A DNA stretch of 64,000 nt from Alphaproteobacteria bacterium (GTDB taxonomy: Bacteria; Pseudomonadota; Alphaproteobacteria; RF32; CAG-239). The stretch covers positions 4,802 to 68,801 of the forward strand of contig JAFUTN010000044.1 of NCBI GenBank assembly GCA_017484225.1, in the 5' to 3' direction. The notes under the pieces were generated by a model. It was not told the origin of the DNA. It did no database searches and saw only the letters and a list, made by a program, of their open reading frames with translations. The translations under genes and the position numbers were made by a program. Positions 1 through 17,874 of this stretch are shown here, one piece after another (position 1 is the first letter of the stretch; every line of letters starts with the position of its first letter).

Positions 1-500
1 ATGCACCTTCCCGCGGATTAATCGGATATCATTCCGAATTTTTGACCGACACTCGCGGAACCGGCGTTATGAATCGTATTTTTTACGAATTTGAGCCGTA
101 TAAGGGTGAAATTGACGAACGCCGGAACGGTGTTATGATTTCCAGCGAAGACGGCCAAGCAATCGCCTACTCTTTGTGGAAACTTCAAGACCGCGGACCA
201 ATGTTTGTGGAACACAACAGTCCGGTTTATGTCGGAATGATTATCGGTGAACATACAAAATACAACGACATTGAAGTTAACCCTACAAAATCAAAACAGT
301 TAACAAATATCCGTGCTGCCGGAAAAGATGAAGCCATTGATTTGATTCCTCCGCGTAAAATGAGTTTGGAGCAGGCTTTATCTTATATTCAAGCTGATGA
401 ATTATTGGAAGTTACACCGAAATCATTAAGGTTGCGCAAACGGATTTTAGATCCGATTGCCCGCAAGCGAGCCAATAATAAACCTACTGAAAATGCTTAA
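1..500 (+). CDS. typA: GTP-binding protein TypA/BipA, C-terminal part (CDS begins upstream of window)
   Basis: Frame 3 reads from base 3 as ...[34 protein letters not shown]..., the conserved C-terminal domain of the BipA/TypA translational GTPase. There is no start codon inside the window. The stop at 500 is followed by a hairpin terminator. Confidence 0.8.
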
Positions 501-518
501 ATTTAAAACTATTACAAG

Positions 519-556
519 CAGACCTTAAACGTATCAGATTTAAGGTCTGTTTTTTG
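519..556. terminator. Bidirectional rho-independent terminator (cagaccttaaa / tttaaggtctg followed by a T-run)
   Basis: An 11-bp perfect inverted repeat with a T-run on the + strand and an A-run on the - strand, lying between the convergent typA and 574..1218 genes. Confidence 0.7.
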
Positions 557-573
557 TTCACGAAATGTATATG

Positions 574-1218
574 TTAATCAAATACCCACTCTATATAATT
601 TTCATTGTCTGAAGAAGTAAGAGCATCAGCTTCTTGCACGGTATAACGTATTTTGTATACACAAACTCCGTCTATCGCTTCGGCATTATCACCGCATCCC
701 TCTTTTTCCGGAATACACTTATTACCGAAAAGCAGGAAACCTGCTCCGCATCCGTTATTTTTACTTACACACGCATAGTTTTTGAATAAATATCCTTCTT
801 TACATTCAGAACAACGTCCGGTATTCGTGCATTCTTGACAACCAGTTCCGCAAGACAGACAATTATTATAATCATTTTCGTAATATTTTCCGGATGGACA
901 TTGTTGACACACACCATTCTTGCAAGGAACACAAGCCTGTGACAAAGTATATGCATGCATTGAGATTGCGTATCCTTCCTCACATTCAATACAACGCCCT
1001 CCTCCGCATTGTTTGCAATGAGAACCATATAATTCTTGACATGTATAACACCCGTCCCCCCGCATCCAGTCTAAAATATATCCTTCCTCACAACTTCCGC
1101 AATACCATGTTCCGCTGCAAGAAGCGCAATGTTTTCTACCGACTGCACATTGAGCATATACATAGCTTATTTGGGAAAATAAAAGCACATTTAATACTAA
1201 AATTATTTTTTTAATCAT
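574..1218 (-). CDS. Secreted cysteine-rich repeat protein (EGF/furin-like CxxC repeats) with a conserved C-terminal tag
   Basis: N-terminal signal peptide MIKKIILVLNVLLFSQISYVYA. About 40 Cys arranged in recurring C-x2-C...C-x2-C-x-E-G-Y units. The C-terminal YKIRYTVQEADALTSSDNENYIEWVFD is shared with the 54894..55616 protein. Confidence 0.6.
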   Translation of the reverse strand: MIKKIILVLNVLLFSQISYVYAQCAVGRKHCASCSGTWYCGSCEEGYILDWMRGDGCYTCQELYGSHCKQCGGGRCIECEEGYAISMHAYTLSQACVPCKNGVCQQCPSGKYYENDYNNCLSCGTGCQECTNTGRCSECKEGYLFKNYACVSKNNGCGAGFLLFGNKCIPEKEGCGDNAEAIDGVCVYKIRYTVQEADALTSSDNENYIEWVFD

Positions 1219-1535
1219 GGTTAAATCCTTTGCAATTTCTTATTAAAAGAATAACCACCTATCACAGGTGGCTGGAAGTTGCAAACTACTAACCATGAAT
1301 AGTGTATCGTATTCGGGAATCATACCTTTATTCCGATACCTTCCAGCTATACTGGAAACAAGGCGCTTAAAACTCAGCACCTTTTTATGGTTAGGAGGTT
1401 TGCACACCTCAAAACACCCTTTTCAGACGTTTCAAAAATATTGTAAGAAAAAATTTTATGCTTGTAAAGAAGAGATTTTAACATTATGCTTAGTCTATTG
1501 TTATGTAACAAACCTGATTCGATAAGGAATTAAAA

Positions 1536-2096
1536 ATGAAAAAAACGATTGTTTTAAGCTTAACCTGTCTGCTTATGTTACCGGCAGTTGCTTTTTCGGC
1601 CGAAAAAATGAGTTACACTGACGAAGCTTCAGCCCTCGGTTCTATTTCCGGACAAGGATTGGCTTGCCATGCAAAAAAATATCATCAGTATGAATTGCTG
1701 GCCAGAGCCATTGTAAAAAGCAAAGCAGTCAGCGACAAAGCGGAAGAAGACGGTTTTTATGCCTTTAACGACGGAAAAGCAAACGCTTTTATGGACATAT
1801 TAAACAATAATTTTTCCGAATGTGAAGAAATAAACTATTCGTTTAATCGCCAAAAAATATTCAAAAGCGTGCTTTATTCAGACGGTAAAATAAAAATGTT
1901 TGACGGAACCGTTATTACTCCGCGCCAACCGTATAACGCTGCCGACTTATACAAAAAAGATCCGGAAGCATACTTGAAAGCGGAAGCTGCCTATAAACAG
2001 GCAATCAGCAATGCCGAAAAAAATGCCGCAACCAAAGAAAAAATTCCATTGCGCGATTCTAATTACAGCCGCTTTGCCAATCAATTTGAAAACTAA
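1536..2096 (+). CDS. Secreted hypothetical protein (signal peptide)
   Basis: 186-aa ORF with RBS-like ggaattaaaaATG, N-terminal signal peptide MKKTIVLSLTCLLMLPAVAFSA, and no recognisable catalytic motif. Confidence 0.5.
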   Translation: MKKTIVLSLTCLLMLPAVAFSAEKMSYTDEASALGSISGQGLACHAKKYHQYELLARAIVKSKAVSDKAEEDGFYAFNDGKANAFMDILNNNFSECEEINYSFNRQKIFKSVLYSDGKIKMFDGTVITPRQPYNAADLYKKDPEAYLKAEAAYKQAISNAEKNAATKEKIPLRDSNYSRFANQFEN

Positions 2097-2114
2097 AATT
2101 TAAGGGAGTTATTT

Positions 2115-3794
2115 ATGGCCGCATACCAATATATATTTGTAATGCAAAATCTGACCAAAGTTCTGCCGGGGGGACGTGAACTGTTCAAAAACATTACTTT
2201 GTCTTTTTTGCCGGGAGCAAAAATCGGAGTTTTGGGAGTCAACGGCGCCGGAAAGTCTACACTGCTGAAAATCATGGCCGGCGTTGATAAAGATTATAAC
2301 GGCGAAGCTTGGGCTGCCGATGGCGTTAAAATCGGTTATTTGGAACAAGAACCACAGTTAGATCCGAATAAAAACGTTATGGAAAACGTTATGGACGGAC
2401 TTGGTGAAATTAAAGATTTGTTACAAAGATTTGAGGAAGTTTCCGCAAAATTTGCCGAACCGATGAGTGACGAGGAAATGAATGCTCTCATAGAAGAACA
2501 AGCTGACTTGCAAGAAAAAATTGATGCTTGCAACGGTTGGGATTTTGAGCGCACAATTCAAATAGCAATGGATGCTTTGCGCTGTCCACCGGCTGATGCC
2601 GACGTAACAAAGCTTTCCGGCGGCGAAAAACGAAGAGTTGCCCTTTGCCGCTTATTATTGCAAAAACCGGATATGTTGTTGTTGGATGAACCTACAAACC
2701 ATTTGGATGCTGAATCCGTGGCATGGCTGGAACGCCATTTACGTGAATATAACGGCACAGTGGTGATGGTAACTCACGACAGATATTTTCTTGATAATGT
2801 AACCGGATGGATTTTGGAACTTGACCGCGGTCAAGGTATCCCTTATGAAGGAAATTACACTTCTTGGTTGGAACAAAAAGAAAAACGACTTGCCCAAGAA
2901 GCCAGAGAAGAAAACTCACGTCAACGCACATTGGCTCTTGAATTAGAGTGGATTCATAAAAATCCTAAAGCTCGTCAGGCAAAATCAAAAGCACGTATTA
3001 ATGCTTATGATGAATTGCTGTCACAAGCAGCAAAAGAAAAAATCACCACGGCTCATATAAATATTCCGATGACCGAACGTTTGGGCGATTTGGTAATTGA
3101 AGCCAATCATATCAGCAAAGCCTTCGGAGACAAAGTTTTGATTGATGATTTATCATTCAAGATTCCCAAAGGTGCTATTGTCGGTATTATCGGTCCGAAC
3201 GGAGCCGGAAAAACAACTTTGTTTAAAATGATTACCGGACAGGAAAAACCGGATTCAGGCGAAATCAGAATCGGTGACACCGTTGATTTGGGATACGTTG
3301 ATCAATCTCGCGACGAACTCAGTGCCGACAAAAATGTTTGGGAAGAAATTTCTGACGGCTTGGATATGATTTGGCTCGGTAAAAACGAAGTATCTTCACG
3401 CTCTTATGTGGGACAATTTAATTTTAAGGGGGCGGACCAACAGAAAAAGGTCGGCAACCTTTCCGGCGGTGAACGCAATCGCGTTCACTTGGCAAAAATG
3501 CTCAGAAAAGGTGCTAATGTCATTTTGCTTGACGAGCCGACCAATGACTTGGATGTTGATACTTTGCGCTCACTGGAAGAAGGTATCATCAATTATCCGG
3601 GGTGCGTTTTGGTTACATCACATGACCGTTGGTTTTTAGACCGTTTAGCAACACATATCTTAGCTTATGAAGACAACGGACATGTTGAATGGTTTGAAGG
3701 TAACTTTGAAGAATACGAAAAGGATAAAAAAGCCCGCTTGGGTGAAGATGCCTGCAATCCGCACCGCATTAAATACAAAAAATTAACCAACTAA
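2115..3794 (+). CDS. ettA: Energy-dependent translational throttle protein EttA (ABC-F ATPase)
   Basis: Two ABC cassettes with Walker [10 protein letters not shown] and GPNGAGKTT, signature LSGGEKRRV and LSGGERNRV. Family-typical N-terminus MAAYQYIF and an inter-domain arm/linker. 559 aa. Confidence 0.9.
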
Positions 3795-4637: not shown

Positions 4638-4660
4638 AATACATTAACTTACAAGAAAAA

Positions 4661-4686
4661 GGCCGGTAAATTACCGGCTTTTTTGT
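4661..4686. terminator. Bidirectional hairpin terminator (ggccggtaa / ttaccggcc followed by a T-run)
   Basis: Perfect GC-rich inverted repeat followed by TTTTTT, lying between the convergent 3813..4637 and 4690..6150 genes. Confidence 0.7.
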
Positions 4687-4689
4687 GGT

Positions 4690-6150
4690 TTATTTCTCTG
4701 TCAACGGCGGAGGCATCAGAATATCAAGGCTTAAGTTATTGACGGATATAAATGCAATTATCAAGCAAATAACGGCGTATATGTGCAACATACTCACCCA
4801 ACTTCGGTTAATATTTTCCGGTAAAGACTGATAAAGCTTAAGTTCCCACCTGTTAATGCCGTGAATACATAAAACTATCAGTATTAATTGCGGAAAAATT
4901 CCGATACTGCGGAAGGTTTCGGAAAACGGAGAAATCATTTTGATTAAAGCCGAGAAAAACAAAAAATATCCGGCGGCAAAAGCATAATATTTAGTGTTTT
5001 TCTGGGTTTGTTCTTTCTTGATTTTTGCCTTTGCCGAATTTTCACCGGAAGCAATTTTTGCAACCTCCACACCACGAACTTTAACCGGTTCTGCCTGCTG
5101 TTTTTTATACTCTTTCATTTCGGCTTTTATTTTTTCATCAAGCATACACAGACCGCAACCTTTTGCCGTAAAATACGCATGATTAGGATTTTTTTTGCAC
5201 TTTTCCATGTGATTATATAAATAATCAAGATGATTTTGCCACTCCAAAGCTGACGGACGTTCATTACCTTTTGTAAAAGCACGTTCAAACAAATTCATTG
5301 TAGTTTTATCAAAATAATCATGAATACTGTATGGATGCGGTTTTTGATATTCATCCGCCCAAATTCCGTAAGCATAGTGATATTGTGCTATCCGCTCTTG
5401 CAATGACAGCATATCACCTTTTTTGCGCGGCGTTCCGCTGAACGGATGAATTCCTTCATTAAGTAACTTGAAAATAATTACGGCCAAAGCAAATTTATCT
5501 TGTTCTTCTCCCATTTGTTCACAAGTTTGCGTCATTCCTTCCGGATAAATATATTCTTCGCTCACATATTCAGCCGGATAGCGAGCTCCCTGTTCCCCTT
5601 TAATACTGAAGCCGTCACAATCAAACATAGCCATAAGCATTGTCTCTTTATATACGGACACATTTGAAGGTTTAAGGTCCACAATATAGTGTCCGCAAGC
5701 ATGCAATGCGGCAACAACGGTGGTAATATTAAATGCGGCACAAACACGATCGGCATAGTTTTCGGTGATACCCAGCTTTTTGCGCACGGCTTTTTGCATT
5801 AAATAATCAAGTGAAATTGCTTTTTCCGTATCTATCAAAGGCATCAGATAACCGACACAATAGCCTTGAGAATCTTCCAATAATGCTGTCGGCCAAGCGA
5901 TTTGTATATATTCTTCTCCTTTAAATTCTCGGGTAGGAATATCCGGACGATTCTGCAGCATAGCCTCCAATTTTTTGCGATTTGTTTCGCTTTTGTTGCG
6001 GTCATGATAAATTTTTGCCACACTTTTTTCGTGCGTAGTATCACGATAAATTTTTCCGGAAGCTCCTCCTTTGTTTAATAACTCACCCAACACCACCGTT
6101 TCGTGATGTCCGTCAGGATATAATGCTAAATATTGTGTATTGTCGGTCAT
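4690..6150 (-). CDS. Hanks-type Ser/Thr protein kinase with a C-terminal membrane anchor (kinase of a TerY-P triad)
   Basis: Kinase subdomains: the VAIK equivalent (SVAKIY) and a catalytic-loop HRDLKPxN equivalent (VDLKPSNV). The C-terminal ~90 residues hold 2-3 hydrophobic helices. The start codon overlaps the stop of the upstream PP2C gene (ATGA). Confidence 0.75.
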   Translation of the reverse strand: MTDNTQYLALYPDGHHETVVLGELLNKGGASGKIYRDTTHEKSVAKIYHDRNKSETNRKKLEAMLQNRPDIPTREFKGEEYIQIAWPTALLEDSQGYCVGYLMPLIDTEKAISLDYLMQKAVRKKLGITENYADRVCAAFNITTVVAALHACGHYIVDLKPSNVSVYKETMLMAMFDCDGFSIKGEQGARYPAEYVSEEYIYPEGMTQTCEQMGEEQDKFALAVIIFKLLNEGIHPFSGTPRKKGDMLSLQERIAQYHYAYGIWADEYQKPHPYSIHDYFDKTTMNLFERAFTKGNERPSALEWQNHLDYLYNHMEKCKKNPNHAYFTAKGCGLCMLDEKIKAEMKEYKKQQAEPVKVRGVEVAKIASGENSAKAKIKKEQTQKNTKYYAFAAGYFLFFSALIKMISPFSETFRSIGIFPQLILIVLCIHGINRWELKLYQSLPENINRSWVSMLHIYAVICLIIAFISVNNLSLDILMPPPLTEK

Positions 6151-6896
6151 GAAATTTTAGCCCATAAAATTGTTTTATCATCAGCGTTAATGCGCTGTGC
6201 TTTTTGATTATTCAACGTATTTTGCAATGCTTCCAGAGCATATATTTTACTTTGTTCATTTTCCAAATATTCGGCTATCGGAATTAAAAAATTATAGCGA
6301 ACGGAGGTGTAATCGTTATTAAATGCAAAGCAGGTAACCCCATCAGTCATCAACATAATTCGGTCGGCATTTTCAAATTCTTGAAAACGTAAACAATCTG
6401 CCCAATCAGTCATGGTATAAAAAAATGTTTCACAGGCAAAAGCTCCGTTTTCCGGCTCGGAAATTATAAAATTGTCATAGTTTCCGTGCTTAAAAGCAAC
6501 TCCGGCTCCATCTCCTATGTGAAAAAAAATCCCCTTGCCTTTGTAATAAAATACCCCCACCAACGTTGCCGAGAAATCAACCAACCCTTGCTCATCCTTA
6601 CTTTCATTCATTTTATGAACAATTAATTTTTGTCTGGCTATATTTATGGCTTTTATAACGTCTGAGCGAATATCGCCGGCATCAGACTTCAACAATTCCG
6701 TGCATAACGTCTCACACACATTTTTGGCACCGATTCTGCCGAACTTTGCCGATCCGGCACCGTCAGAAACCACAGCCACCATTTTTTGCCCTTTGCTTTT
6801 GGCGCACCCGTAATCTTGGCAGGGCAGCCCCCTCGCCTGATGCAACGCCCCGCAAATACTGGCTGTTATAAACGATATGTGGTGATCATTACTCAT
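6147..6896 (-). CDS. PP2C-family Ser/Thr protein phosphatase
   Basis: PPM signatures VVSDGAGS and MLMTDGV (the metal-binding Asp residues). The gene lies between the vWA and kinase genes with 4-bp overlaps. Confidence 0.75.
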   Translation of the reverse strand: MSNDHHISFITASICGALHQARGLPCQDYGCAKSKGQKMVAVVSDGAGSAKFGRIGAKNVCETLCTELLKSDAGDIRSDVIKAINIARQKLIVHKMNESKDEQGLVDFSATLVGVFYYKGKGIFFHIGDGAGVAFKHGNYDNFIISEPENGAFACETFFYTMTDWADCLRFQEFENADRIMLMTDGVTCFAFNNDYTSVRYNFLIPIAEYLENEQSKIYALEALQNTLNNQKAQRINADDKTILWAKIS

Positions 6897-6899
6897 ATT

Positions 6900-7595
6900 T
6901 TACTTTGTCTCATTCCAATCATTAATATCATCAAGATAGCTGTTGGCATTCGGGGCCGCTTTAGATATACACGAAACACTGCGACTGAGCCAGAGGAAAA
7001 ACTCGGTAAATTTAAGACCGGTTAAACGCTTTGGCGGCAACAATGAAAACTTGGCAAGTTTTTCCAAATTGGCATCTTGAGTTCCGATAGCATGAATCAC
7101 AACCTTTTTGTTTTTTTGTGCATACCGGCAAAGCTCTGCCGAATCTTCCCAACCGTAATCAGTAGGCTCTCCGTCACTGATTAAAAAAATCCACGGACGT
7201 TTTGAGGTAATACCGCAGTTATCATACAAACATTTTTGGTCCTCAATTTTTTTCAAAGCAAGTTCCATAGCTTTACCCAAAGGAGTTAAGCCGCCTGCTT
7301 CCATAGTCGGTGCCGTAAAATTCATAGCATCCGTCCAATCGGTAGAAACAACAACTTCATCTTTGCCGAAAGCTTTAATAATCAAAATTTGCACACGTGA
7401 ACTGGCATCAATATCCTCTTTCAATTCTTTTTCTAAGGCCGCCAATCCGGCAATAAGCTGTTTTATCGGTTCTCCACGCATGGAACCCGAACAATCCAAA
7501 ACCAATATGCAAGGAGTTCGTTCATTAGCATTATCGGCAAATTCCACAAAAGGAATCGTTGCCGGAGAATTTTCTTGTTTATTTTCTTCTGTCAT
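6900..7595 (-). CDS. von Willebrand factor A domain protein (TerY-like), cytoplasmic
   Basis: MIDAS motif DCSGSM at the N-terminus of a vWA fold, with no signal peptide. First gene of the vWA-PP2C-kinase operon. Confidence 0.7.
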   Translation of the reverse strand: MTEENKQENSPATIPFVEFADNANERTPCILVLDCSGSMRGEPIKQLIAGLAALEKELKEDIDASSRVQILIIKAFGKDEVVVSTDWTDAMNFTAPTMEAGGLTPLGKAMELALKKIEDQKCLYDNCGITSKRPWIFLISDGEPTDYGWEDSAELCRYAQKNKKVVIHAIGTQDANLEKLAKFSLLPPKRLTGLKFTEFFLWLSRSVSCISKAAPNANSYLDDINDWNETK

Positions 7596-7817
7596 TGTAT
7601 TTCCTTTCTAATCGTGCGGATAATTATGCGGAAAATCACTGCCTTCAATCGGCGACGGTTCGGAATATCTGCCGCAAGCCGAGAGAACATTGCACAAAGA
7701 AACGGCAAACAACACCAAAAATATTTTTTGCAAAATTTTCATTTATTAACCTTTTATTTTCACTATTTGTTTATACATAAATTCACTGTGAACAATTTAA
7801 CAGAAAGATGTTAACGA

Positions 7818-8369
7818 ATGAATAATATTTTAAAAACTTTGAGTATTTTGTTGATTGCTTTAACGTTTTTTGCAAATGCCGATGCTAAGCTTAACTTGTT
7901 TGCGCAACCCCGTTACATTCCGGAGCTGAGTTACTATAGCGACAGCGGCAAAAAGCACAAATTAACCGAATATAAAAGTGATTTGTTACTTGCTGTATTG
8001 TGGTCACGTTTTTGCGGTCCCTGCATAGGTGACATGAAACACTTGCAAAAATTTGCCGACAAAACAAAAAATAAAGGCATCAAAGTTATTATTATTTCTC
8101 CGGATGAAGAATGGAAAAGCATTGATGAACGCCGTAACTTTTTGAAAAAAATAGGCGCTCCGAATTTGGAATCCTACACAGATCGTAAATCAAACTTTGC
8201 ACACGGAATGGGAATTATGGTAACACCGGTGGCTGTTATGGTAAACCGCAACGGCGAAGAAATCGGACAGATTTCCGGTTCAGTGGAATGGGATGATGAT
8301 GAAGTCGTTGATTACATGATTAAGCTGAAAAATACGCAATATCAAACAATTCCGAATAAGTCAAAATAA
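7818..8369 (+). CDS. Periplasmic thioredoxin-like thiol:disulfide oxidoreductase (TlpA/ResA family)
   Basis: Signal peptide plus a WSRFCGPCIGD CxxC active site in a thioredoxin fold. Confidence 0.7.
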   Translation: MNNILKTLSILLIALTFFANADAKLNLFAQPRYIPELSYYSDSGKKHKLTEYKSDLLLAVLWSRFCGPCIGDMKHLQKFADKTKNKGIKVIIISPDEEWKSIDERRNFLKKIGAPNLESYTDRKSNFAHGMGIMVTPVAVMVNRNGEEIGQISGSVEWDDDEVVDYMIKLKNTQYQTIPNKSK

Positions 8370-8993: not shown

Positions 8994-9665
8994 TTAGCGC
9001 AAAAATTTTTCAATTTCAGCAACATCTTCTTGGCTATCCACATAAAATATTTTTTTATGAGCAATTTGCGGTTGAATACCTATAAACTGTTTAGAATATT
9101 CTATACAAACAGCTTTCGGCTCATTTTTGCTTAAATAGAGTCTGGCCGCAGATTCACAATGAACCTGAAAATATTTATACTGTGCTTGTTGCAGTTGTTC
9201 AGCAAACTTGCAACACTTTTCGCGGTAATCATTTAACAGCATTATATGGTGTTGTTTATGCCCGATACAATAACTTTCCACAATATCCACCAAGTCGCCG
9301 ATATCAAACGGAGAATGTAAATAATGCGCAATGGCCGGATGCTGCAGAAATTCGTATTGCCGCGGTTTTATGGCGATAATCGGAAATTTTTCCTCAGCAC
9401 CGAGTTCAGGTATAAGCCTATCCAAAAATGCGCGCACCGGATTATAATTTTCATCCACATAAAAAATCATTACATCCGGTTTAATTTCGTAAGTGTAGCG
9501 TAAAAGCTGATAAATATTATCGGTTCCAAACAGCAAAAAGCCGCGTTTTTCAAAAATTTCCTGAAATTTTTTCAGGCGTTCCCTGTCTGTGTCATAGGCA
9601 AAAATCCGTCCGCAATATGTTCGCCTCATCTCTGTACCCTTTCCTTTTATCAGAATATAATCCAC
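8994..9665 (-). CDS. Hypothetical protein, possibly a degenerate CheY-like receiver fold
   Basis: Cytoplasmic 223-aa ORF. Alternating beta-alpha pattern with acidic residues where receiver domains carry them (YDTD...MIFYVD...PIIAIKP), but no clear output domain. Confidence 0.3.
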   Translation of the reverse strand: MDYILIKGKGTEMRRTYCGRIFAYDTDRERLKKFQEIFEKRGFLLFGTDNIYQLLRYTYEIKPDVMIFYVDENYNPVRAFLDRLIPELGAEEKFPIIAIKPRQYEFLQHPAIAHYLHSPFDIGDLVDIVESYCIGHKQHHIMLLNDYREKCCKFAEQLQQAQYKYFQVHCESAARLYLSKNEPKAVCIEYSKQFIGIQPQIAHKKIFYVDSQEDVAEIEKFLR

Positions 9666-11582: not shown

Positions 11583-14399
11583 TTATTTTTCGGAAGTTTC
11601 ATAAGTATCGCCTAAATGATCTTCTGCAACTTCTTTTACTTTTTCAATAAATTTTTGTTCAAATGCTTTTCCTTTATCTGAATTAAAGTATTCATATTTA
11701 TACCACTGTTCATAAAAATTTTCGTATGGCTGAGGTATATGTGCATAAAAAATATTTATACCCTGTTTTCTGTATGCCTGCATTTTCTGTTTAAAATCAA
11801 GAATACGCGCCTGTTCATTTTTTGATATATTAACAAACAACAAAATATTATTTTTATTTTTTTGATTTAAATACTTGCCAAAATTAAGAACATCATTTGT
11901 TGAAATTTTTTCATCAACCGAACTCAATATAAATAATCGTTTGCCTGATGATAACATGACCTCAAAATTTTCAATACGCTTTTTATATCTGTCAATAAAC
12001 TTATCTTTGTCATATTGAGAACAATCCTGATCATGATTATAGTAAATACCATATTTAGAATTAATCCATAATTTATTTGTTTGATCCCACTCTAAATTGT
12101 TGAAATAATCACTAAATTTTGATTTAACCACTCGCACTGTTGAATTAAAAGAACATACACATAAGTCAAACGGACAACTAAGTTCACCTTGTTCTTTATG
12201 TGCTTTCATATTATATCTTGTTAAAACAGTTCTGGTAAAACAACATTCTCCCAAGCTTATGAAATAATTGTTAGGAAAAACAGCCTCAGAAATTTTCAGT
12301 ATTCTTTTCAAATTAGCCAAAGATTCTTGATAAATGTTCCTCTGCAACTTTTGTAAATTTTTGACTATACTCATGTAATGCTCATTAGACATTTCTATAG
12401 CATTTTTCATAGCATCTGACAAATCATTATTGGTTTTGTAACTGATAGAATTTGAATTATCAAACAAATTAACCGAAGTTTGAAATTTTTCAGCTATTAT
12501 ACAAGGAATACTAAAGCCGTATATTAACTGATAAGAACCGCTTGAACCACAACTGATGTAACGTTCATGTTGTTTATTTTCCGGATCAAATAAAGGCAAA
12601 TAAAAATCAGCCTTTTTCATTTCATTATACATATCTTTATAACTTAACCGACCCATGAAATCTATGTATGGTTTTATATGTTCGGGAACATTTAAATTGC
12701 CTGCTCTTGCTATAACCGTAACTTTAAAATTTTTAATACCTCTTTTTAAAATATTATCTATTGCATCAATCAACACAGAATGATTTTTACGTTCGCTTTC
12801 AATTTGTCCCACACATACAAATGTCGTTAAGTTATGTTTTTTTAGTCTATTAAAAGTTTCAAAAAAATGAGCATTTACCATAGACACATTTTCACTTTGG
12901 AAAATAGGAAGTTTATTTAAGGAAACAACCTTGAATTTATCGCTTTGGGGCTTAATATCTGCATATTGATCAGCATGATGACATAAAGTTAAGACCTTCC
13001 CTTTGGGAAGTTGAATATTTTCTCCAATATACTTCAAAACCGGCACAAAACCTTCATCATTAATATACACTCGGTCTGAATTGATATAAAGGTGCATATA
13101 TCTCTCTACAATATTGTGGGTGACTATTTTTAATATATCATTGCGAGACATTGCGAAGACATGAAACTTTTCATCCTTAATGCCTGCAAACGGTTCCAGA
13201 TTACTTTCTTCTTCCGTTAAACATACATCTACATTATACCCTAAATCCAAAAAATATTTAGCCATCCCCGGTAAACACTCTCCGTGAAAATAATTAAATT
13301 CTATCATTAGAACACTGTTTTCACGAACGTCGTGACATAAAAAATCATAAAATTTATCATTTTTTATTATTTTAACGTTTGGTGCCGGAAATTTATATTC
13401 GGAACAAAAAATAGGTATAAAACCAAAAAGATTATATTTTTTCTTTTCTATACATATCAAAGGTTTATCAAGATATAAATTTAAACTTTCTTCATTTTTT
13501 ATTTCTGCATATTCTTTATAAGATGAGTTTAAAGAATTCAAAACAATTATAAACTTTAGAATATATTGTTTAATTAACTCATATTTATCATTTTCTTTTG
13601 CCTTTCCAATGAATTCTATTAAAAAATGTATTCTGTCATAAATAAACAAAGCCTTGTCCTCATTATCTATTTTTTGAGACAAAATATATAAAATCAAATC
13701 ATCAAAAATAGAGCAAACATCAACTATGTGAGCAGGAGTTATTTTATGTGTTAGAGAATCATCATTATTAAAGTAGTGATAGTATACATCATCAATAATC
13801 TTGTAACTTTTTATATGACATAAAAAGTGGGCTATAAAATATAAGTCTTCGCCTAGTAAAGATTTCTTAAAACCAATTTTATTTTTCTCAACTATTTCCT
13901 TTTTATATAACGCGCTCCACCATTCATAAGTAAAGACAGCAACAATATTCCCTTTATGTTTTTTTATTATATTATTCAAAATTCCATTTTTATCAGTTTT
14001 TTTACCAGACTCGTATGCCGTATTTCCCTTAATTATATCTATCTCACCATTATTACTGTTTTGATAAAGTCTTTCATAAAAATTCTCATCTACCCAATCA
14101 TCTGCATCACAAAAAGCAAGATATTTACCTCTGGCCACATTAATTGCACAGTTTCTGGCAATAGCAGCCCCTTCATTTTTTTTATGGACAACTATTATTC
14201 TCTTATCCTTTGTTGCATATTTATCCAGAATTTGACCTGACCCATCTGAAGAACCATCATTAACACAAATTATTTCTATATTTTTAATTGTTTGTTTTAT
14301 TAAGCTGTTTAAGCATCTGCCCAAGAACTTTTCTGCGTTATAAACCGGAACTATTACACTTATAGCAACATCATCTGAGTTAGTTGAATTATTCACCAT
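11583..14399 (-). CDS. Multi-module glycosyltransferase: N-terminal GT2, internal K-Y-x-L-F-G-x-P-I-F tail repeat, then two further domains
   Basis: N-terminal SVIVPVYNAEKFL...CDADDW GT2 signature (DxD). At residues ~320-340, KKKYNLFGFIPIFCSEYKF matches the C-terminal tail repeat found on other GTs in the locus, suggesting a fusion to a downstream ~600-aa region with further transferase-like domains. Confidence 0.6.
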   Translation of the reverse strand: MVNNSTNSDDVAISVIVPVYNAEKFLGRCLNSLIKQTIKNIEIICVNDGSSDGSGQILDKYATKDKRIIVVHKKNEGAAIARNCAINVARGKYLAFCDADDWVDENFYERLYQNSNNGEIDIIKGNTAYESGKKTDKNGILNNIIKKHKGNIVAVFTYEWWSALYKKEIVEKNKIGFKKSLLGEDLYFIAHFLCHIKSYKIIDDVYYHYFNNDDSLTHKITPAHIVDVCSIFDDLILYILSQKIDNEDKALFIYDRIHFLIEFIGKAKENDKYELIKQYILKFIIVLNSLNSSYKEYAEIKNEESLNLYLDKPLICIEKKKYNLFGFIPIFCSEYKFPAPNVKIIKNDKFYDFLCHDVRENSVLMIEFNYFHGECLPGMAKYFLDLGYNVDVCLTEEESNLEPFAGIKDEKFHVFAMSRNDILKIVTHNIVERYMHLYINSDRVYINDEGFVPVLKYIGENIQLPKGKVLTLCHHADQYADIKPQSDKFKVVSLNKLPIFQSENVSMVNAHFFETFNRLKKHNLTTFVCVGQIESERKNHSVLIDAIDNILKRGIKNFKVTVIARAGNLNVPEHIKPYIDFMGRLSYKDMYNEMKKADFYLPLFDPENKQHERYISCGSSGSYQLIYGFSIPCIIAEKFQTSVNLFDNSNSISYKTNNDLSDAMKNAIEMSNEHYMSIVKNLQKLQRNIYQESLANLKRILKISEAVFPNNYFISLGECCFTRTVLTRYNMKAHKEQGELSCPFDLCVCSFNSTVRVVKSKFSDYFNNLEWDQTNKLWINSKYGIYYNHDQDCSQYDKDKFIDRYKKRIENFEVMLSSGKRLFILSSVDEKISTNDVLNFGKYLNQKNKNNILLFVNISKNEQARILDFKQKMQAYRKQGINIFYAHIPQPYENFYEQWYKYEYFNSDKGKAFEQKFIEKVKEVAEDHLGDTYETSEK

Positions 14400-14417
14400 G
14401 GCATATCCTAAAAAACA

Positions 14418-14630
14418 CTAATCTAATACTTCTCTTTGTTTAACTTTTATTTTTAAGACCAATAATCCAAATAAATAGTACTTTGTAATGTTATTTTCTG
14501 AATCAATCACTCTTTTAATAAAAGGGATTTCTAATATTTTCCATATTTTTTTATTGTTGCGAATTTTCCAGCTGTATATGGGTATAAAACACAACAATTT
14601 CAATTTAAAAGATTCTTTATTCTTAGACAT
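14418..14630 (-). CDS. 70-aa ORF made only of three copies of the glycosyltransferase tail repeat (stand-alone or remnant)
   Basis: LLCFIPIYSWKIR / KIWKILEIPFIKRV / KYYLFGLLVLKIKVK. Same repeat as the C-termini of the 17875, 27734, 28848 and 32007 genes. Confidence 0.35.
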   Translation of the reverse strand: MSKNKESFKLKLLCFIPIYSWKIRNNKKIWKILEIPFIKRVIDSENNITKYYLFGLLVLKIKVKQREVLD

Positions 14631-14832
14631 TTAGTTCTCCAAAAACCACCGTTTATTTTGTATAATGTGTGCAGTATACAAAGTTATACGATTAAGTCAA
14701 CCAATTATTGTAAGTATAAACAATTTGCATTTTTTTGTAAGTAAATATAATGTTGTTGTTTTATATCTTCAAGATTATTTCGGTGTTCGCTATAACAAGT
14801 TGAAAAAACATGAGAATGAAATAAAAATTATG

Positions 14833-14922
14833 CTCACTCAAAATCTTTCCAAAGCCGAAATTGCACGTCGTATGAACTGTTCTTGGGCCACGTTAAGCAG
14901 ATTTATCAAACAATTAGACTGA
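14833..14922 (+). CDS. 30-aa helix-turn-helix peptide resembling a transposase/resolvase N-terminal HTH (possible remnant)
   Basis: MLTQNLSKAEIARRMNCSWATLSRFIKQLD matches the LSxxEIARxLG-S-xTVxR HTH of IS-element OrfA/resolvase proteins. The call is only 30 aa and is tentative. Confidence 0.25.
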   Translation, partial: LTQNLSKAEIARRMNCSWATLSRFIKQLD

Positions 14923-14925
14923 TAA

Positions 14926-15999
14926 CTATTCTTTAATCCATTTCAGCAACCGGAATTTTCCTCTTAAGAATGACCATAAAATAAGACGTTTCCGCAAACT
15001 CAAATCTGCATATTTAATGTATTTGTTTGCCAGCAAATATTGCAGATTTTCCGTAATTTTTGCATAATTTTGCTCATCATCTTCCGGATTACAGCGTTGC
15101 ATATATTCCTTAACGCACATTCCGTAAGCATAACGCGAAGCCAGTTTTTGCAAAATCCCCTTATATTGCGGAAATTGTTCACTCAGTATGTTTATTTCCA
15201 CCGGCAAATTTTTATATTCTTCAATGCGGGCAAATGACAGCGGTTTCATTGTTTGAGAAGTGGAAATGATGCGATATGCAATCAATTTTTCTTTGCACAC
15301 AACTATTTTTTCGGCATGAAGCAAAATTTCAATATTCAGCAAAATATCATTGATTGCCGGTAAACTTTCAGCAAAACGCACCTCGTCAAACAAGCTTTTT
15401 TTATAGAGTTTGGTCCACATTAAAGTTTCTATTTTCTTTTTGCGCTCAAACTTATCCTTAAACGGTTCTGCCGACACAAAATCAAAATGTGGTTTTATGT
15501 TTGTTTTTTCAAATTCATATTTTTCATCACCGTTAAAGCGCAAATATGAACAACAGCTTACATCTGCTCCGCTTTCTGTTATATTTTTATACAGAATTTC
15601 CAAATACTGCGGGTGATATATGTCATCATTATCCAAAAACGCAATATATTGCCCCAGAGCCAAATCCAGCCCTTTATTACGACTGGCACTGCCACCGGAA
15701 TTTTTTTGCGAAAATACTTTTATGCGTTTGTCATCTTTCGCCGCGGTTTTTAAAATTTCTGCCGAATTGTCGTCGGAACCGTCATTAACACAAACCAGTT
15801 CAAAATTCGTGAAAGTTTGATTTTTTACGGATTCAAGTGTCATCTGCAAATATTTTTCCGCATTATACACCGGCATGATTACGGAGATAATCGGTTTTTC
15901 TTCCGTTTCTGTGTTATTTTGCAAAATATGAGAGTGCCTGATTAAGTTTTTCAGCCACTCTGTTAAGTGTGTAATTTTTTTGACAAAGTTCATAGCCAT
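14926..15999 (-). CDS. Family 2 glycosyltransferase
   Basis: ISVIMPVYNAEKYL ... VNDGSDDNS ... FLDNDD (DxD) GT-A signatures. Confidence 0.75.
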   Translation of the reverse strand: MAMNFVKKITHLTEWLKNLIRHSHILQNNTETEEKPIISVIMPVYNAEKYLQMTLESVKNQTFTNFELVCVNDGSDDNSAEILKTAAKDDKRIKVFSQKNSGGSASRNKGLDLALGQYIAFLDNDDIYHPQYLEILYKNITESGADVSCCSYLRFNGDEKYEFEKTNIKPHFDFVSAEPFKDKFERKKKIETLMWTKLYKKSLFDEVRFAESLPAINDILLNIEILLHAEKIVVCKEKLIAYRIISTSQTMKPLSFARIEEYKNLPVEINILSEQFPQYKGILQKLASRYAYGMCVKEYMQRCNPEDDEQNYAKITENLQYLLANKYIKYADLSLRKRLILWSFLRGKFRLLKWIKE

Positions 16000-16963
16000 T
16001 TTTTGCCACCTCTCTTGTTTGTGATAGATTTGTTATTGATTTTTCAAGCTGTGCCGCCATTTTCTCGGGATTTTCCATCGGAAACAAATAGGCACATTCC
16101 GGATTGCCGGCAAAGATTTCTCGCGGTCCTTCAGCTTCGGAAGAAACAATCGGTTTTGAGCGCATCATGGCTTCTAACAACACTATTCCGAACGGTTCAA
16201 ACCGTGAAGGCAAAACAAAAACATCTATCTTATCAAAAAATTCGTCTTTATTTTGCACCCATCCCAAAAATTTAACATCTTTTTCCAAACCGAATAATTT
16301 TACTTTAGCGGCAATACGTTCATATTCTTTTTTGTAGCTTTCCTGCACGGCTCCGCCGATAACAGCCTGAAACGGAACTTTTTTTCTTTTCAGTATTGCC
16401 AATGCATCAATAAAATCCGGAAATCCTTTCATCGGATCAAACCGTCCCATTGTGCCGATAACCGGAGGATTATGAAATTCAGTTATCGGAATAAATGCAC
16501 GTTGTTCAGATATTAAGTTAGGCACCACAAAAATATTGTCGCGCGGAAATCCTTTGTCGGAAAAAATTTCTTTTTGATACCGCGTAATCGTAAAAATTCC
16601 GTCACACTTATTAACCTGCTTATATTTCGGATTATGAGAAACACCGATAATTTTTGCATTCAGCATACGTGCAACCGCCTTAAATATCGGAATTGCTTTT
16701 TTGTTGTGGACAATAATCACATCAGGAGCATAGCTTTTCAGCTTAAAATAAAGATAGCATATCAGCAAATAATTATAATGAACAAACGGAATTTTTATGA
16801 TTTTATCCGGTTGCAGAGCCTCTAATTGCGCTTGAATTTTACACCCGTTGTCAATTACGGCAAACACCTGATGATTATACATTTTAAGCGCATTACAATA
16901 ATCTGAAAATGCCTGTTCTATTCCGCCTAAATTTCGGCTTATCATAACGTTAACCGTTTTCAT
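15914..16963 (-). CDS. GT-B (family 4-like) glycosyltransferase
   Basis: C-terminal GT4 signature ...PSRFEPFGIVLLEAMMRSKPIVSSEAEGPREI... (the E-x7-E motif region). Confidence 0.75.
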   Translation of the reverse strand: MKTVNVMISRNLGGIEQAFSDYCNALKMYNHQVFAVIDNGCKIQAQLEALQPDKIIKIPFVHYNYLLICYLYFKLKSYAPDVIIVHNKKAIPIFKAVARMLNAKIIGVSHNPKYKQVNKCDGIFTITRYQKEIFSDKGFPRDNIFVVPNLISEQRAFIPITEFHNPPVIGTMGRFDPMKGFPDFIDALAILKRKKVPFQAVIGGAVQESYKKEYERIAAKVKLFGLEKDVKFLGWVQNKDEFFDKIDVFVLPSRFEPFGIVLLEAMMRSKPIVSSEAEGPREIFAGNPECAYLFPMENPEKMAAQLEKSITNLSQTREVAKNGYELCQKNYTLNRVAEKLNQALSYFAK

Positions 16964-17859
16964 TGTCCAAAATCCTCAAGTTTACCATTCAGCAAAGCAT
17001 CCAAAAAATCACCTTTCTGAGGTTCTTTCTTGTATTTCCATGACAACTTGTGAACTGATGTTTGTTCCCTGATTTTTTTCCACTTTTTTTCATCATAAGG
17101 AACAAAATAATTTGCCTCCAATTCGTAGCAGTCATCATATATCAGCGGGACATTTGCCCACATTGCCGCACATTCGGCATTATGTTCCACCATCATATCA
17201 AAAAATATGTGATACAAAAAGTAGTCAATAAGTTTGTGTTCTTTTTTCCAATAGGCAAACAGCAAATTCTGCATATTTTTCATCAACAGGTTTCCGGCTT
17301 CCGCCTGCAAAAGCCAACTTTGATTTTTCACGTATGAATGAGTATGGTATGCAAAAAATTTTGTTTGCGTTATCTCCGGCATTAATTGAGCCGTAAGTAA
17401 TACCGTCGCATCTATCCAAATTCCGCCGTATTCCGCCAGCAACGAAACCCGTAAAATATCGGAAAAATGCGTATTTGTCATCTCGCCCGCTTGTCGGCGT
17501 TCGGCAATATATTCCGGAAAAGCGATAAATTCCGGAATATTTTTATCGGTCAAAATAATGATTTTATACTCCGGACAAAATTTGCGCACTGATTGCAAAC
17601 ATTTTTTCACAATCGGAGGCATATTTTCTTCACCTTGCAACCAACAAATCCAAATAATTTTCGGACTGTTTCCCGTAATTTCCTTTTGTTGTTCGTTTTG
17701 TAAAACATCTAAATAACGCCGTAAATATTTTTTCTCGGCATTAACAATTAAATTTTTGCGCATTTGTTTACGAACCGTCTTATTCGGATAACGCAAAACA
17801 ACCCAAGCGCGAAGCATTGTCTTTTTTATTTCCGTTGTTACGTATGCAATTTTTCCCAC
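16960..17859 (-). CDS. Putative capsular/LPS glycosyltransferase (OCH1/GT32-like 'capsular polysaccharide synthesis' family)
   Basis: IIWICWLQGEENMPPIVKKCLQSVRKF... N-terminal region typical of this sugar-transferase family. The call is motif-level only. Confidence 0.4.
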   Translation of the reverse strand: MGKIAYVTTEIKKTMLRAWVVLRYPNKTVRKQMRKNLIVNAEKKYLRRYLDVLQNEQQKEITGNSPKIIWICWLQGEENMPPIVKKCLQSVRKFCPEYKIIILTDKNIPEFIAFPEYIAERRQAGEMTNTHFSDILRVSLLAEYGGIWIDATVLLTAQLMPEITQTKFFAYHTHSYVKNQSWLLQAEAGNLLMKNMQNLLFAYWKKEHKLIDYFLYHIFFDMMVEHNAECAAMWANVPLIYDDCYELEANYFVPYDEKKWKKIREQTSVHKLSWKYKKEPQKGDFLDALLNGKLEDFGQ

Positions 17860-17874
17860 CGATAGTCCCCTTTT

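What the first reader, a model, noticed from the sequence alone, without database searches (positions are those of the whole stretch)
4690..7595. Complete vWA-PP2C-Ser/Thr-kinase 'TerY-P triad' operon with translationally coupled genes and a membrane-anchored kinase
Three minus-strand genes overlap by 4 bp (ATGA) at both junctions. They are a cytoplasmic vWA/MIDAS protein (6900..7595), a PP2C phosphatase (6147..6896) and a Hanks-type kinase (4690..6150). This is the 'TerY-P triad' architecture described from comparative genomics as a phosphorylation switch associated with tellurite-resistance-type stress systems. Here it is free-standing, with no other ter genes in the window. The kinase has an unusual C-terminal multi-TM anchor rather than the usual N-terminal kinase followed by an extracellular sensor. 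The triad sits next to a periplasmic thioredoxin (TlpA-like) and a DedA membrane protein, which hints at an envelope-stress role.
Basis: partly seen in the sequence, partly recalled or inferred. Interest (0 to 1): 0.6.

Follow-up and report, generated by a model that had tools for sequence, protein, structure and literature searches.

The report
vWA–PP2C–kinase triad, YegL/PphC/YegI type
This is a real but already-known kind of three-gene phosphorylation switch (a metal-binding vWA protein, a PP2C phosphatase and a membrane-anchored Ser/Thr kinase, as in E. coli yegL-pphC-yegI); here it is fixed in the chromosome of an uncultured gut alphaproteobacterial lineage together with a tiny lipoprotein gene and a periplasmic thioredoxin gene.

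Summary
The three minus-strand ORFs exist exactly as stated and are a MIDAS-intact vWA protein, a PP2C phosphatase and a Hanks-type kinase. All catalytic residues of their families are present.

Only the PP2C/kinase junction is an ATGA overlap. The vWA/PP2C junction is a 3-nt gap.

The proteins are homologues of E. coli YegL (41%), PphC (29%) and YegI (28%). They are more distant from the TerY/PP2C/kinase genes of a classical ter plasmid (25-33%). So this is a free-standing TerY-P triad of the YegLKI type, a known kind.

The gene order vWA-PP2C-kinase recurs in all clade loci tested and in seven distant bacteria.

The membrane anchor is not unusual. About 88% of family representatives have a hydrophobic segment after the kinase and zinc ribbon. 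The compact 3-TM tail with no ectodomain is a minority form, resembling two-pass YegI.

It does not match the PADLOC TerY model, has no OB fold and sits in no defence island.

New here is a 44-aa lipoprotein gene 12 nt upstream of the vWA gene. With a divergent TlpA-like gene it forms a five-gene block that stays intact while its flanks change.

The physiological function is still unknown. Interest is low to moderate.

The parts
4656..4684 (.). G+C-rich hairpin followed by T-runs on both strands. It is the likely bidirectional intrinsic terminator ending the operon (kinase stop at 4690) and the convergent SPFH gene.
   Evidence: Terminator-like scan, (13-pair stem on +, 7-pair stem on -). Sequence read. 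This is a consensus match only.
4690..6150 (-). Ser/Thr kinase of the YegI type, 486 aa. It has an N-terminal Hanks kinase domain, a C-x5-H-x7-C-x2-C zinc ribbon, a basic linker and a 3-TM tail.
   Evidence: Pfam Pkinase. 28% identity and E=1e-26 to E. coli YegI over residues 17-340. AF2 model mean pLDDT 84.7; best PDB fold match is the PknB kinase domain, E=5e-9. K46, D158, K160, N163, D177, D179, D218 and R298 are 97-100% conserved in 147 family sequences.
5146..5199 (-). Zinc-ribbon/knuckle directly after the kinase domain. The ligands are C318, H324, C332 and C335.
   Evidence: All four residues are 100% conserved in 147 family sequences including YegI and invariant in alignments A1 and A3. 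This matches the 'STK fused to a zinc ribbon' description of TerY-P kinases (PMC11090510). Metal binding itself is inferred.
4732..4986 (-). C-terminal membrane anchor with three hydrophobic helices (about aa 391-407, 417-434, 455-473). Predicted topology is N-in/C-out, with only about 9 and 14 residues exposed outside.
   Evidence: Kyte-Doolittle peaks 1.53/1.82/2.49. The segments are conserved in 120 clade homologues, with K+R enrichment before TM1 and between TM2 and TM3. AF2 models helices 363-400, 402-416, 418-442 and 450-470. The prediction is heuristic; no dedicated topology predictor was available.
6147..6896 (-). PP2C-family Ser/Thr phosphatase, PphC/YegK type, 249 aa.
   Evidence: Pfam PP2C_2 at 9.1e-37, full length. 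29% identity and E=3e-16 to E. coli PphC. The metal-binding Asp residues D28, D45, D129, D185, D239 and D240 are invariant across 8 distant homologues.
6900..7595 (-). Cytoplasmic TerY/YegL-like vWA protein with an intact MIDAS (D34-x-S36-x-S38, T104, D141) and an invariant C-terminal F-x-W-x-S-x-S-x4-S patch.
   Evidence: Pfam VWA and VWA_2. 41% identity and E=4e-46 to YegL. 33% identity and E=1.5e-20 to TerY1 of a Klebsiella ter plasmid. Invariant residues in 11 diverse sequences. No hydrophobic segment. It is the most conserved gene of the block, with median 86% identity in the clade.
7608..7742 (-). First gene of the operon: a 44-aa lipoprotein precursor (lipobox LSAC, mature peptide about 22 aa ending in the F/Y-P-H-x-Y-P motif). 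It is restricted to this clade.
   Evidence: Sequence read. Present in 66 of 67 clade loci. There are 32 distinct peptides with invariant C23, G24, P31, S35, P38, H39, Y41 and P42. It lies 0-29 nt from the vWA ATG in 35 of 39 distinct junctions. 260 homologues, those listed about 41-70 aa (mostly 44) and, where named, from 'Alphaproteobacteria'/'Pseudomonadota bacterium' MAGs.
7743..7817 (.). 75-nt divergent intergenic region shared by the operon and tlpA. It is the presumed promoter region.
   Evidence: The region is 74-101 nt long in 33 distinct relatives. Only the two ribosome-binding sites are clearly conserved. The promoter-like hit at 7854-7827(-) is not above chance.
7818..8369 (+). Divergently transcribed periplasmic TlpA/ResA-like thioredoxin (signal peptide, C-G-P-C active site). 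It is a conserved partner of the block within the clade; a functional link is not shown.
   Evidence: Pfam Redoxin at 1.5e-12 and NCBIfam TlpA at 6e-20, the latter below its cutoff. Adjacent and divergent in 61 of 61 loci. It stays attached while the genes beyond it fall into at least 13 unrelated families (examples).

Best explanation
The locus is a chromosomal, vertically inherited TerY-P-type phosphorylation triad of the E. coli YegL-PphC-YegI kind.

Proposed working:
1. The kinase sits in the inner membrane through a short 3-TM tail, with its catalytic domain and zinc ribbon in the cytoplasm.
2. It activates itself by autophosphorylation near its 'D-x-D' (DFG-equivalent) loop, probably with Mn2+.
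3. The co-translated PP2C removes these phosphates and resets the switch.
4. The cytoplasmic vWA protein is the third, most strongly constrained partner. It would be either the substrate or a MIDAS-metal-dependent adaptor that reads the phosphorylation state and carries the output.

In this gut/rumen alphaproteobacterial lineage the triad is co-transcribed behind a 44-aa lipoprotein gene and paired with a divergent periplasmic thioredoxin gene. This suggests, but does not show, that the input comes from the envelope.

Basis of each step:
- Shown here: gene content, order, tight spacing, intact catalytic, MIDAS and zinc-ribbon residues, homology, and conservation of the block.
- Shown elsewhere for the E. 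coli homologues: kinase activity, Mn2+ preference, need for the DSD loop, two-pass membrane location, and dephosphorylation of YegI by PphC.
- Inferred: the role of the vWA protein, the signal, and the output.
For: - Domains.
- Homology to YegL, PphC and YegI.
- Homology to classical ter-plasmid TerY, PP2C and kinase.
- Family size: 6873 representatives at E<=1e-3, with only the kinase and zinc-ribbon region (about residues 13-345) conserved.
- Catalytic and zinc-ribbon residues 97-100% conserved. PP2C Asp and MIDAS residues invariant.
- Kinase fold: AF2 pLDDT 84.7 and PknB as top structural match.
- Co-conservation in the clade: PP2C in 75 of 75 loci and vWA in 71 of 71 loci.
- Tight junctions in 71 distinct triads: ATGA in 35 and a 1-nt overlap in 26 at PP2C/kinase; an 11-20 nt overlap in 55 at vWA/PP2C.
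- The same order vWA-PP2C-kinase occurs in Azospirillum and in Granulicella, Deinococcus, Sinorhizobium, Cupriavidus, Trichormus and Methylocystis. In E. coli K-12 yegJ is inserted.
- Terminator hairpin after the kinase gene.
- Experimental data on YegI and PphC: bioRxiv 10.1101/819920, 10.1101/303594 and PMC13232886.
Against: - No experiment links any YegL/TerY vWA protein to the kinase or phosphatase. The E. coli papers found no physiological substrate and no inducing condition.
- The phospho-acceptor serines mapped in YegI (S153, S160, S162) are not positionally conserved in the window kinase. The DSD-S sequence of YegI is DCD-G here.
- The TM topology is heuristic.
- The link to the lipoprotein and TlpA rests on synteny within one lineage. 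Triads outside it lack both genes.
Confidence: 0.8

Rival explanations
1. It is an anti-phage defence system of the TerY-P type reported by Gao et al. 2020. In that reading the triad senses infection and triggers protection or abortive infection.
For: - The three-domain composition matches the validated TerY-P system, which protects against T7-like phages (PMC7699616; PMC11090510).
- Distant family members sit on plasmids beside transposases, integrases and a HipA toxin-antitoxin pair.
- TerY-P triads are embedded in CoCoNuT/McrBC restriction loci.
Against: - None of the three window proteins matches PADLOC's TerY model or any other defence model, even at E<=10. The only hit is a weak kinase-domain match to MkoA.
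- The defence version has an OB fold after the kinase. This kinase has a zinc ribbon and a TM tail.
- The block has a fixed composition and a stable partner set in all clade loci. The vWA protein is at median 86% identity, which indicates strong purifying selection rather than diversification.
- The neighbours checked are housekeeping or envelope genes, not defence genes.
- A pattern-limited scan of 2.9 million viral contigs found no relative.
Confidence: 0.1
2. It is a trans-envelope stress or redox sensing module. The short lipoprotein, the TlpA-like thioredoxin, or both report a periplasmic or outer-membrane condition to the sensor-less 3-TM kinase. The kinase then switches the vWA effector.
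For: - The lipoprotein gene heads the operon in 66 of 67 loci and lies 0-29 nt from the vWA gene in 35 of 39 distinct junctions.
- tlpA is divergent and adjacent in 61 of 61 loci, across a 74-101 nt shared intergenic region.
- The five-gene block stays intact while the genes beyond tlpA fall into at least 13 unrelated families.
- The kinase has no ectodomain, so an accessory membrane or periplasmic partner would be a plausible source of input.
Against: - All evidence is synteny within one lineage (kinase identity 52-76%).
- Triads elsewhere lack both genes.
- No conserved operator was found in the shared intergenic region.
- The mature lipoprotein has no cysteine for a thioredoxin to act on.
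- No interaction evidence exists.
Confidence: 0.2
3. It is part of a tellurite or metal-stress (Ter) resistance system, as the name TerY suggests.
For: The vWA protein is 28-33% identical to TerY1, TerY2 and TerY3 of a Klebsiella ter plasmid. On that plasmid the TerY genes are followed by a PP2C and a kinase inside the ter cluster.
Against: - No TerA, B, C, D, E, Z or X gene and none of the ter-linked biosynthetic genes is present in 64 kb.
- The window PP2C and kinase are only 26% and 25% identical to the ter-cluster ones, over part of their length. The ter-cluster proteins have different architectures (577-aa PP2C, 499-aa kinase).
- The closest characterised relatives are the non-ter E. coli yegLKI genes.
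Confidence: 0.03

Closest known systems
E. coli yegL-pphC(yegK)-yegI locus (Rajagopalan & Dworkin; bioRxiv 10.1101/303594 and 10.1101/819920)
   Same: - Same three proteins in the same order: 41%, 29% and 28% identity.
- ATGA overlap between the phosphatase and kinase genes, as in most E. coli strains.
- The kinase has a D-x-D motif in place of DFG (DCD versus DSD) and the same C/H/C/C zinc ribbon after the kinase domain.
- The kinase is membrane-embedded without an extracytoplasmic sensor domain.
   Different: - The window kinase keeps the canonical D-L-K-P-x-N catalytic loop, where YegI has D-V-N-Q-N-S.
- It ends after a third TM helix (486 aa). YegI has a two-pass hairpin followed by about 210 cytoplasmic residues (648 aa).
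- The window operon starts with a small lipoprotein gene and is paired with tlpA. E. coli has neither; its neighbours are ibsA/sibA and yegD.
TerY-P (TerY-phosphorylation) triad of Anantharaman, Iyer & Aravind 2012, as summarised in PMC11090510 and PMC4978471
   Same: It has a TerY-like vWA protein, a PP2C and a Ser/Thr kinase fused to a C-terminal zinc ribbon, in one tight operon. The vWA protein is homologous to bona fide TerY1-3.
   Different: - It is not linked to ter genes, McrBC/CoCoNuT loci, WXG100/FtsK genes or DNA-processing genes.
- It holds a stable chromosomal position in a clade rather than sitting in a mobile island.
- I could not read the 2012 paper itself, so its criteria are taken second-hand.
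TerY-P anti-phage system of Gao et al. 2020 (PADLOC TerY model PDLC02224)
   Same: The same three enzyme and domain classes.
   Different: - There is no match to the PADLOC TerY model.
- The kinase tail is a zinc ribbon plus TM helices instead of an OB fold.
- There is no defence-island context.
Classical bacterial Hanks kinase/PP2C pairs (PknB-PstP, PrkC-PrpC)
   Same: A Hanks fold, with the PknB kinase domain as the best structural match. A partner PP2C is encoded in the same operon. The kinase domain is N-terminal and cytoplasmic, followed by a membrane segment.
   Different: - There are no PASTA or other extracytoplasmic domains.
- The DFG motif is replaced by D-x-D-G.
- A zinc ribbon follows the kinase domain.
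- There is an obligatory vWA partner gene.

Membership tests
TerY-P triad (sensu Anantharaman et al. 2012, criteria as quoted in PMC11090510) | TerY-like vWA-domain protein with a MIDAS | tested here: met
   Pfam VWA. 33%, 28% and 29% identity to TerY1, TerY2 and TerY3 of pK66-45-1, with E values from 1.5e-20 to 1e-14. D34, S36, S38, T104 and D141 are invariant with TerY1/2.
TerY-P triad (sensu Anantharaman et al. 2012, criteria as quoted in PMC11090510) | PP2C-like phosphatase encoded next to the vWA gene | tested here: met
   PP2C_2 at 9.1e-37. The catalytic Asp residues are invariant. The gene starts 3 nt after the vWA stop.
TerY-P triad (sensu Anantharaman et al. 2012, criteria as quoted in PMC11090510) | Ser/Thr kinase fused at its C-terminus to a zinc ribbon | tested here: met
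   Pkinase hit and PknB-like fold. C318, H324, C332 and C335 are 100% conserved in 147 sequences. Zinc binding itself was not tested.
TerY-P triad (sensu Anantharaman et al. 2012, criteria as quoted in PMC11090510) | The three genes are co-inherited as one cassette | tested here: met
   PP2C in 75 of 75 and vWA in 71 of 71 clade loci. The same order occurs in seven distant bacteria and, with yegJ inserted, in E. coli K-12.
YegL-PphC-YegI system of E. coli | Sequence homology of all three proteins over most of their length | tested here: met
   BLASTP gives 41% (4e-46), 29% (3e-16) and 28% (1e-26). Orthology in the strict sense was not established; no tree was built.
YegL-PphC-YegI system of E. 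coli | Kinase with D-x-D in place of DFG, and membrane-embedded without an ectodomain | tested here: met
   D177-C-D179, with both Asp residues 100% conserved. Three predicted TM helices with only 9 and 14 external residues. Membrane insertion and topology are predictions.
YegL-PphC-YegI system of E. coli | Mn2+-preferring autophosphorylating kinase that is dephosphorylated by the PP2C | not testable with these tools
   This is biochemistry known only for the E. coli proteins.
TerY-P anti-phage defence system (Gao et al. 2020; PADLOC) | Proteins match the curated defence-system HMMs (PADLOC TerY model) | tested here: not met
   No PADLOC hit for the vWA protein or the PP2C even at E<=10. The kinase matches only MkoA at 0.003. 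The library does hold a TerY model, PDLC02224, which E. coli YegL touches at 0.032.
TerY-P anti-phage defence system (Gao et al. 2020; PADLOC) | Kinase carries a C-terminal OB fold (as described in PMC11090510) | tested here: not met
   The region after the zinc ribbon is a basic helix plus three TM helices and the protein ends at residue 486.
TerY-P anti-phage defence system (Gao et al. 2020; PADLOC) | Confers phage resistance | not testable with these tools
   This needs plaque assays.
ter (tellurite resistance) gene cluster | Presence of TerZ/A/B/C/D/E-type genes beside TerY | tested here: not met
   tblastn of 18 ter-cluster proteins against the window matches only the vWA and PP2C genes.
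LptM (YifL) lipoprotein family, considered for the 44-aa ORF | Similarity of the mature region to LptM, beyond the signal peptide and lipobox | tested here: not met
   Pfam LptM_cons appears only in 5 of 18 members, with best E=0.0072. hhalign against E. coli LptM aligns only columns 1-26, which are the signal peptide and lipobox.

The most novel reading that the evidence does not exclude
In this gut/rumen alphaproteobacterial lineage the mobile TerY-P cassette has been domesticated into a five-gene trans-envelope signalling module. A roughly 22-residue lipid-anchored periplasmic peptide (invariant S-x-x-P-H-x-Y-P) and/or a TlpA-like thioredoxin would supply the input to a sensor-less 3-TM YegI-type kinase. 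The output would be the unusually constrained vWA/MIDAS protein. If true, this would give the first physiological input and a tractable partner set for the YegLKI/TerY-P class, whose function is still unknown.
Probability: 0.15. Interest if true: 0.6.

Novelty: new member of a known kind. Interest (0 to 1): 0.3.

Why it matters
The identification itself adds little. TerY-P triads were described in 2012. The E. coli homologues PphC and YegI have been characterised biochemically, and a related form is a validated anti-phage system.

What could matter is the context. The physiological role, signal and substrate of the YegL-PphC-YegI class are still unknown. Here the cassette is not mobile. It is fixed, strongly conserved (vWA at median 86% identity) and permanently associated with two envelope genes. 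A lineage in which the triad behaves like a core gene set, with candidate partners, may be a better place to ask what these switches do than E. coli, where no expression condition has been found.

The invariant Ser-rich patch at the C-terminus of all TerY/YegL vWA proteins is a concrete candidate phosphorylation site to test.

Tried and rejected
- PADLOC scans, including at E<=10, gave no defence-family membership.
- NCBIfam gave only sub-threshold, uninformative hits for the three proteins.
- The genome-contig scan with the single kinase returned only one locus.
- The metagenome scan and a third protein search, both with a diverse kinase-domain alignment (A1), were swamped by the same gut clade. 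They did not sample distant relatives. Distant triads were obtained instead from the plasmid collection.
- The viral-contig scan found no relative, but it was limited to two peptide patterns.
- A PDB sequence search gave only weak hits: the RSK2 C-lobe for the kinase and one vWA 'conserved protein'.
- The Anantharaman 2012 paper (PMC4104200) is not held. A literature search for TerYA/B/C and mechanism papers found nothing new.
- LptM was considered as the identity of the small lipoprotein and rejected, because the similarity is confined to the signal peptide and lipobox.
- I looked for a conserved operator in the divergent tlpA/operon intergenic region. The window's TTCACAGTGAA palindrome is not conserved, and only the ribosome-binding sites are.
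- Promoter-like hits are not above the shuffled expectation.
- DedA as a functional partner was rejected, because its position varies.


Full report
**1. What is in the sequence**

The three minus-strand ORFs are at the stated coordinates:
- 6900..7595, 231 aa
- 6147..6896, 249 aa
- 4690..6150, 486 aa

Reading the minus strand shows that the PP2C and kinase genes overlap by ATGA (6150..6147). The vWA gene ends with TAA at 6902..6900. The PP2C ATG is at 6896..6894, so that junction is a 3-nt gap and not an overlap.

A G+C-rich hairpin with T-runs lies at 4656..4684, just after the kinase stop.

A further small ORF lies upstream and on the same strand. It spans 7608..7742 and encodes MKILQKIFLVLFAVSLCNVLSACGRYSEPSPIEGSDFPHNYPHD, a lipoprotein precursor. 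Its stop is 12 nt before the vWA ATG.

**2. Domain identity and integrity**

Pfam gives VWA/VWA_2, PP2C_2 (9.1e-37, full length) and Pkinase, which covers the C-lobe only at the sequence level.

An AlphaFold2 model of the kinase, built on 52 clade sequences, has mean pLDDT 84.7. Its best PDB match is the PknB kinase domain from M. tuberculosis (E=5e-9).

I aligned 147 family sequences. These residues are 97-100% conserved:
- the beta3 lysine K46
- the catalytic loop D158-x-K160-P-x-N163
- D177-x-D179-G180, which stands in place of DFG
- D218 and R298
- a C318/H324/C332/C335 zinc ribbon

The window kinase is closer to the family consensus than E. coli YegI is.

The PP2C keeps all metal-binding aspartates (D28, D45, D129, D185, D239, D240). 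The vWA protein keeps a complete MIDAS (D34, S36, S38, T104, D141). Both sets are invariant across distant homologues.

**3. The membrane anchor**

Hydropathy shows three segments, 391-409, 415-433 and 452-470. They are conserved in 120 clade homologues. Basic residues are concentrated before the first segment and between the second and third. This fits an N-in/C-out three-pass topology with only about 9 and 14 residues outside. The model shows matching helices.

This is a heuristic prediction.

The anchor is not unusual for the family. Of 145 representatives of at least 400 aa:
- 127 have at least one strongly hydrophobic segment after the zinc ribbon, with a median start at residue 399
- 108 have a single segment followed by a median of about 250 residues
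- 19 have two or more segments

E. coli YegI is an experimentally shown two-pass membrane protein without an ectodomain (10.1101/819920). So the window form is a minority architecture of a normally membrane-anchored kinase.

**4. Closest relatives**

| Window protein | E. coli homologue | Identity | E-value |
|---|---|---|---|
| vWA | YegL | 41% | 4e-46 |
| PP2C | PphC/YegK | 29% | 3e-16 |
| kinase | YegI (residues 17-340, including the zinc ribbon) | 28% | 1e-26 |

Published work shows the following for the E. coli proteins:
- YegI is an active kinase that prefers Mn2+ and needs K39, D141 and its DSD loop.
- PphC dephosphorylates YegI.
- pphC and yegI overlap by ATGA in most strains.
- No substrate or inducing condition is known.

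I also compared the window proteins with the classical ter cluster of Klebsiella plasmid pK66-45-1, whose order is TerY1-TerX-TerY2-TerY3-PP2C-kinase. The window vWA protein is 28-33% identical to TerY1-3. The PP2C is 26% and the kinase 25% identical, each over part of its length.

No other ter gene is present in the 64 kb.

The locus is therefore a free-standing TerY-P triad of the YegLKI type. It matches the published description 'TerY-like vWA, PP2C, and STK fused to a zinc ribbon' (PMC11090510; PMC4978471).

**5. Co-conservation**

The kinase family is large. There are 6873 representatives at E<=1e-3 and 678 at E<=1e-30. Only residues about 13-345 are conserved, and the tails vary.

Close homologues (52-76% identity) come from human-gut and rumen metagenomes and from 'Alphaproteobacteria bacterium' MAGs. 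In the loci recovered, every one with enough upstream DNA has the PP2C (75 of 75) and the vWA gene (71 of 71).

The junctions are tight in 71 distinct triads:
- PP2C/kinase: ATGA in 35 and a 1-nt overlap in 26
- vWA/PP2C: an 11-20 nt overlap in 55

Outside the clade, the order vWA-PP2C-kinase recurs in Azospirillum and in Granulicella, Deinococcus, Sinorhizobium, Cupriavidus, Trichormus and Methylocystis plasmids. There it often sits beside transposases or toxin-antitoxin genes.

**6. What is particular to this lineage**

*The lipoprotein gene.* It is present in 66 of 67 loci, as 32 distinct peptides. The lipidated Cys and a G...P...S..PH.YP core are invariant. It lies 0-29 nt from the vWA ATG in 35 of 39 distinct junctions. 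Its 260 detectable homologues, as far as listed, are about 41-70 aa (mostly 44), and those that carry a source name are 'Alphaproteobacteria'/'Pseudomonadota bacterium' MAG proteins. Its similarity to LptM covers only the signal peptide and lipobox.

*The TlpA-like gene.* It is divergent and adjacent in 61 of 61 loci, across a 74-101 nt intergenic region.

*The block as a unit.* The genes beyond tlpA fall into at least 13 unrelated families in 58 loci. Examples are pnp-rpsO-truB, DnaJ/PRTase and, in the window, DedA. Yet the five-gene block stays intact. Beyond the kinase gene, an NMO-family gene follows in 51 of 59 loci. The window lineage has SPFH-EttA there instead. DedA and its partner orf223 move around.

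*Relative conservation.* Median identity to the window protein:

| Protein | Median identity |
|---|---|
| vWA | 86% |
| kinase | 58% |
| PP2C | 52% |
| lipoprotein | 50% |
| TlpA | 42% |

**7. Defence system or not**

PADLOC holds a TerY model, PDLC02224. E. coli YegL touches it only at E=0.032, and the window vWA protein and PP2C do not match anything.

The validated defence form has an OB fold after the kinase, which is absent here.

The neighbours checked in the window are housekeeping or envelope genes. They include EttA, SPFH, DedA, a sulfatase-family membrane protein and glycosyltransferases. A pattern-limited scan of viral contigs found nothing.

A defence role is not excluded. It is not supported for this lineage, where the cassette behaves like a conserved chromosomal operon.

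**8. Mechanism**

The most likely mechanism is a membrane-tethered kinase/PP2C toggle. The vWA/MIDAS protein would be its substrate or a phospho-state-dependent adaptor.

Steps known from the E. coli homologues are autophosphorylation, Mn2+ dependence, reversal by PphC and membrane location. The role of the vWA protein is inferred. The inference rests on its strict co-inheritance, its extreme conservation, its intact MIDAS and an invariant C-terminal F-x-W-x-S-x-S-x4-S patch shared with true TerY proteins.

The input signal is unknown. The conserved lipoprotein and TlpA-like genes make an envelope-derived input the leading speculation (probability about 0.15-0.2).

**9. Verdict**

- one junction is a gap, not an overlap
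- the anchor is typical of the family rather than unusual
- a fourth gene was missed

It is a new member of a known kind. The added value lies in the clade-specific five-gene block.

Noticed in passing
window 7608-7742 (-): A 44-aa lipoprotein gene heads the operon. It is not called in the public assembly of the same scaffold. It defines a family of short proteins (those listed are about 41-70 aa, mostly 44) seen only in this MAG lineage, with an invariant S-x-x-P-H-x-Y-P C-terminal motif.
   Followed up: yes
window 6960-6999 (-), vWA residues 200-211: The C-terminal motif F200-x-W202-x-S204-x-S206-x4-S211 is invariant from classical TerY1/TerY2 through YegL to this protein. It is a candidate phospho-acceptor patch for the partner kinase. 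This is inference only.
   Followed up: partly
window 8994-9665 (-): A 223-aa ORF has no Pfam or NCBIfam hit. It travels together with the DedA gene in relatives, upstream of the block in some and 3-5 kb downstream in others.
   Followed up: no
window 574-1218 (-): A 214-aa secreted protein is very rich in cysteine, with repeated C-x-x-C-type units. It has no Pfam hit.
   Followed up: no
window 11583-18900: A low-GC stretch (28-37% against about 39% elsewhere) is full of glycosyltransferase and capsule-synthesis genes. It includes a 938-aa GT2/GT1/DUF1796 fusion. It is probably a horizontally acquired surface-polysaccharide locus.
   Followed up: no
L002-L006 and most of L007-L086, immediately after the kinase gene: A roughly 465-aa NMO-family (PF03060) gene follows the kinase gene in 51 of 59 relatives. 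In the window lineage it is replaced by SPFH-EttA.
   Followed up: partly
L092 (Sinorhizobium meliloti plasmid) 396-3495: A distant vWA-PP2C-kinase triad sits directly after the hxsBCA His-Xaa-Ser radical-SAM peptide system. The Cupriavidus triad lies next to a J-domain protein. In E. coli the neighbour is the Hsp70-like yegD.
   Followed up: no
window 55694-61867 (-): A very long ORF of 2057 aa. I did not examine it.
   Followed up: no
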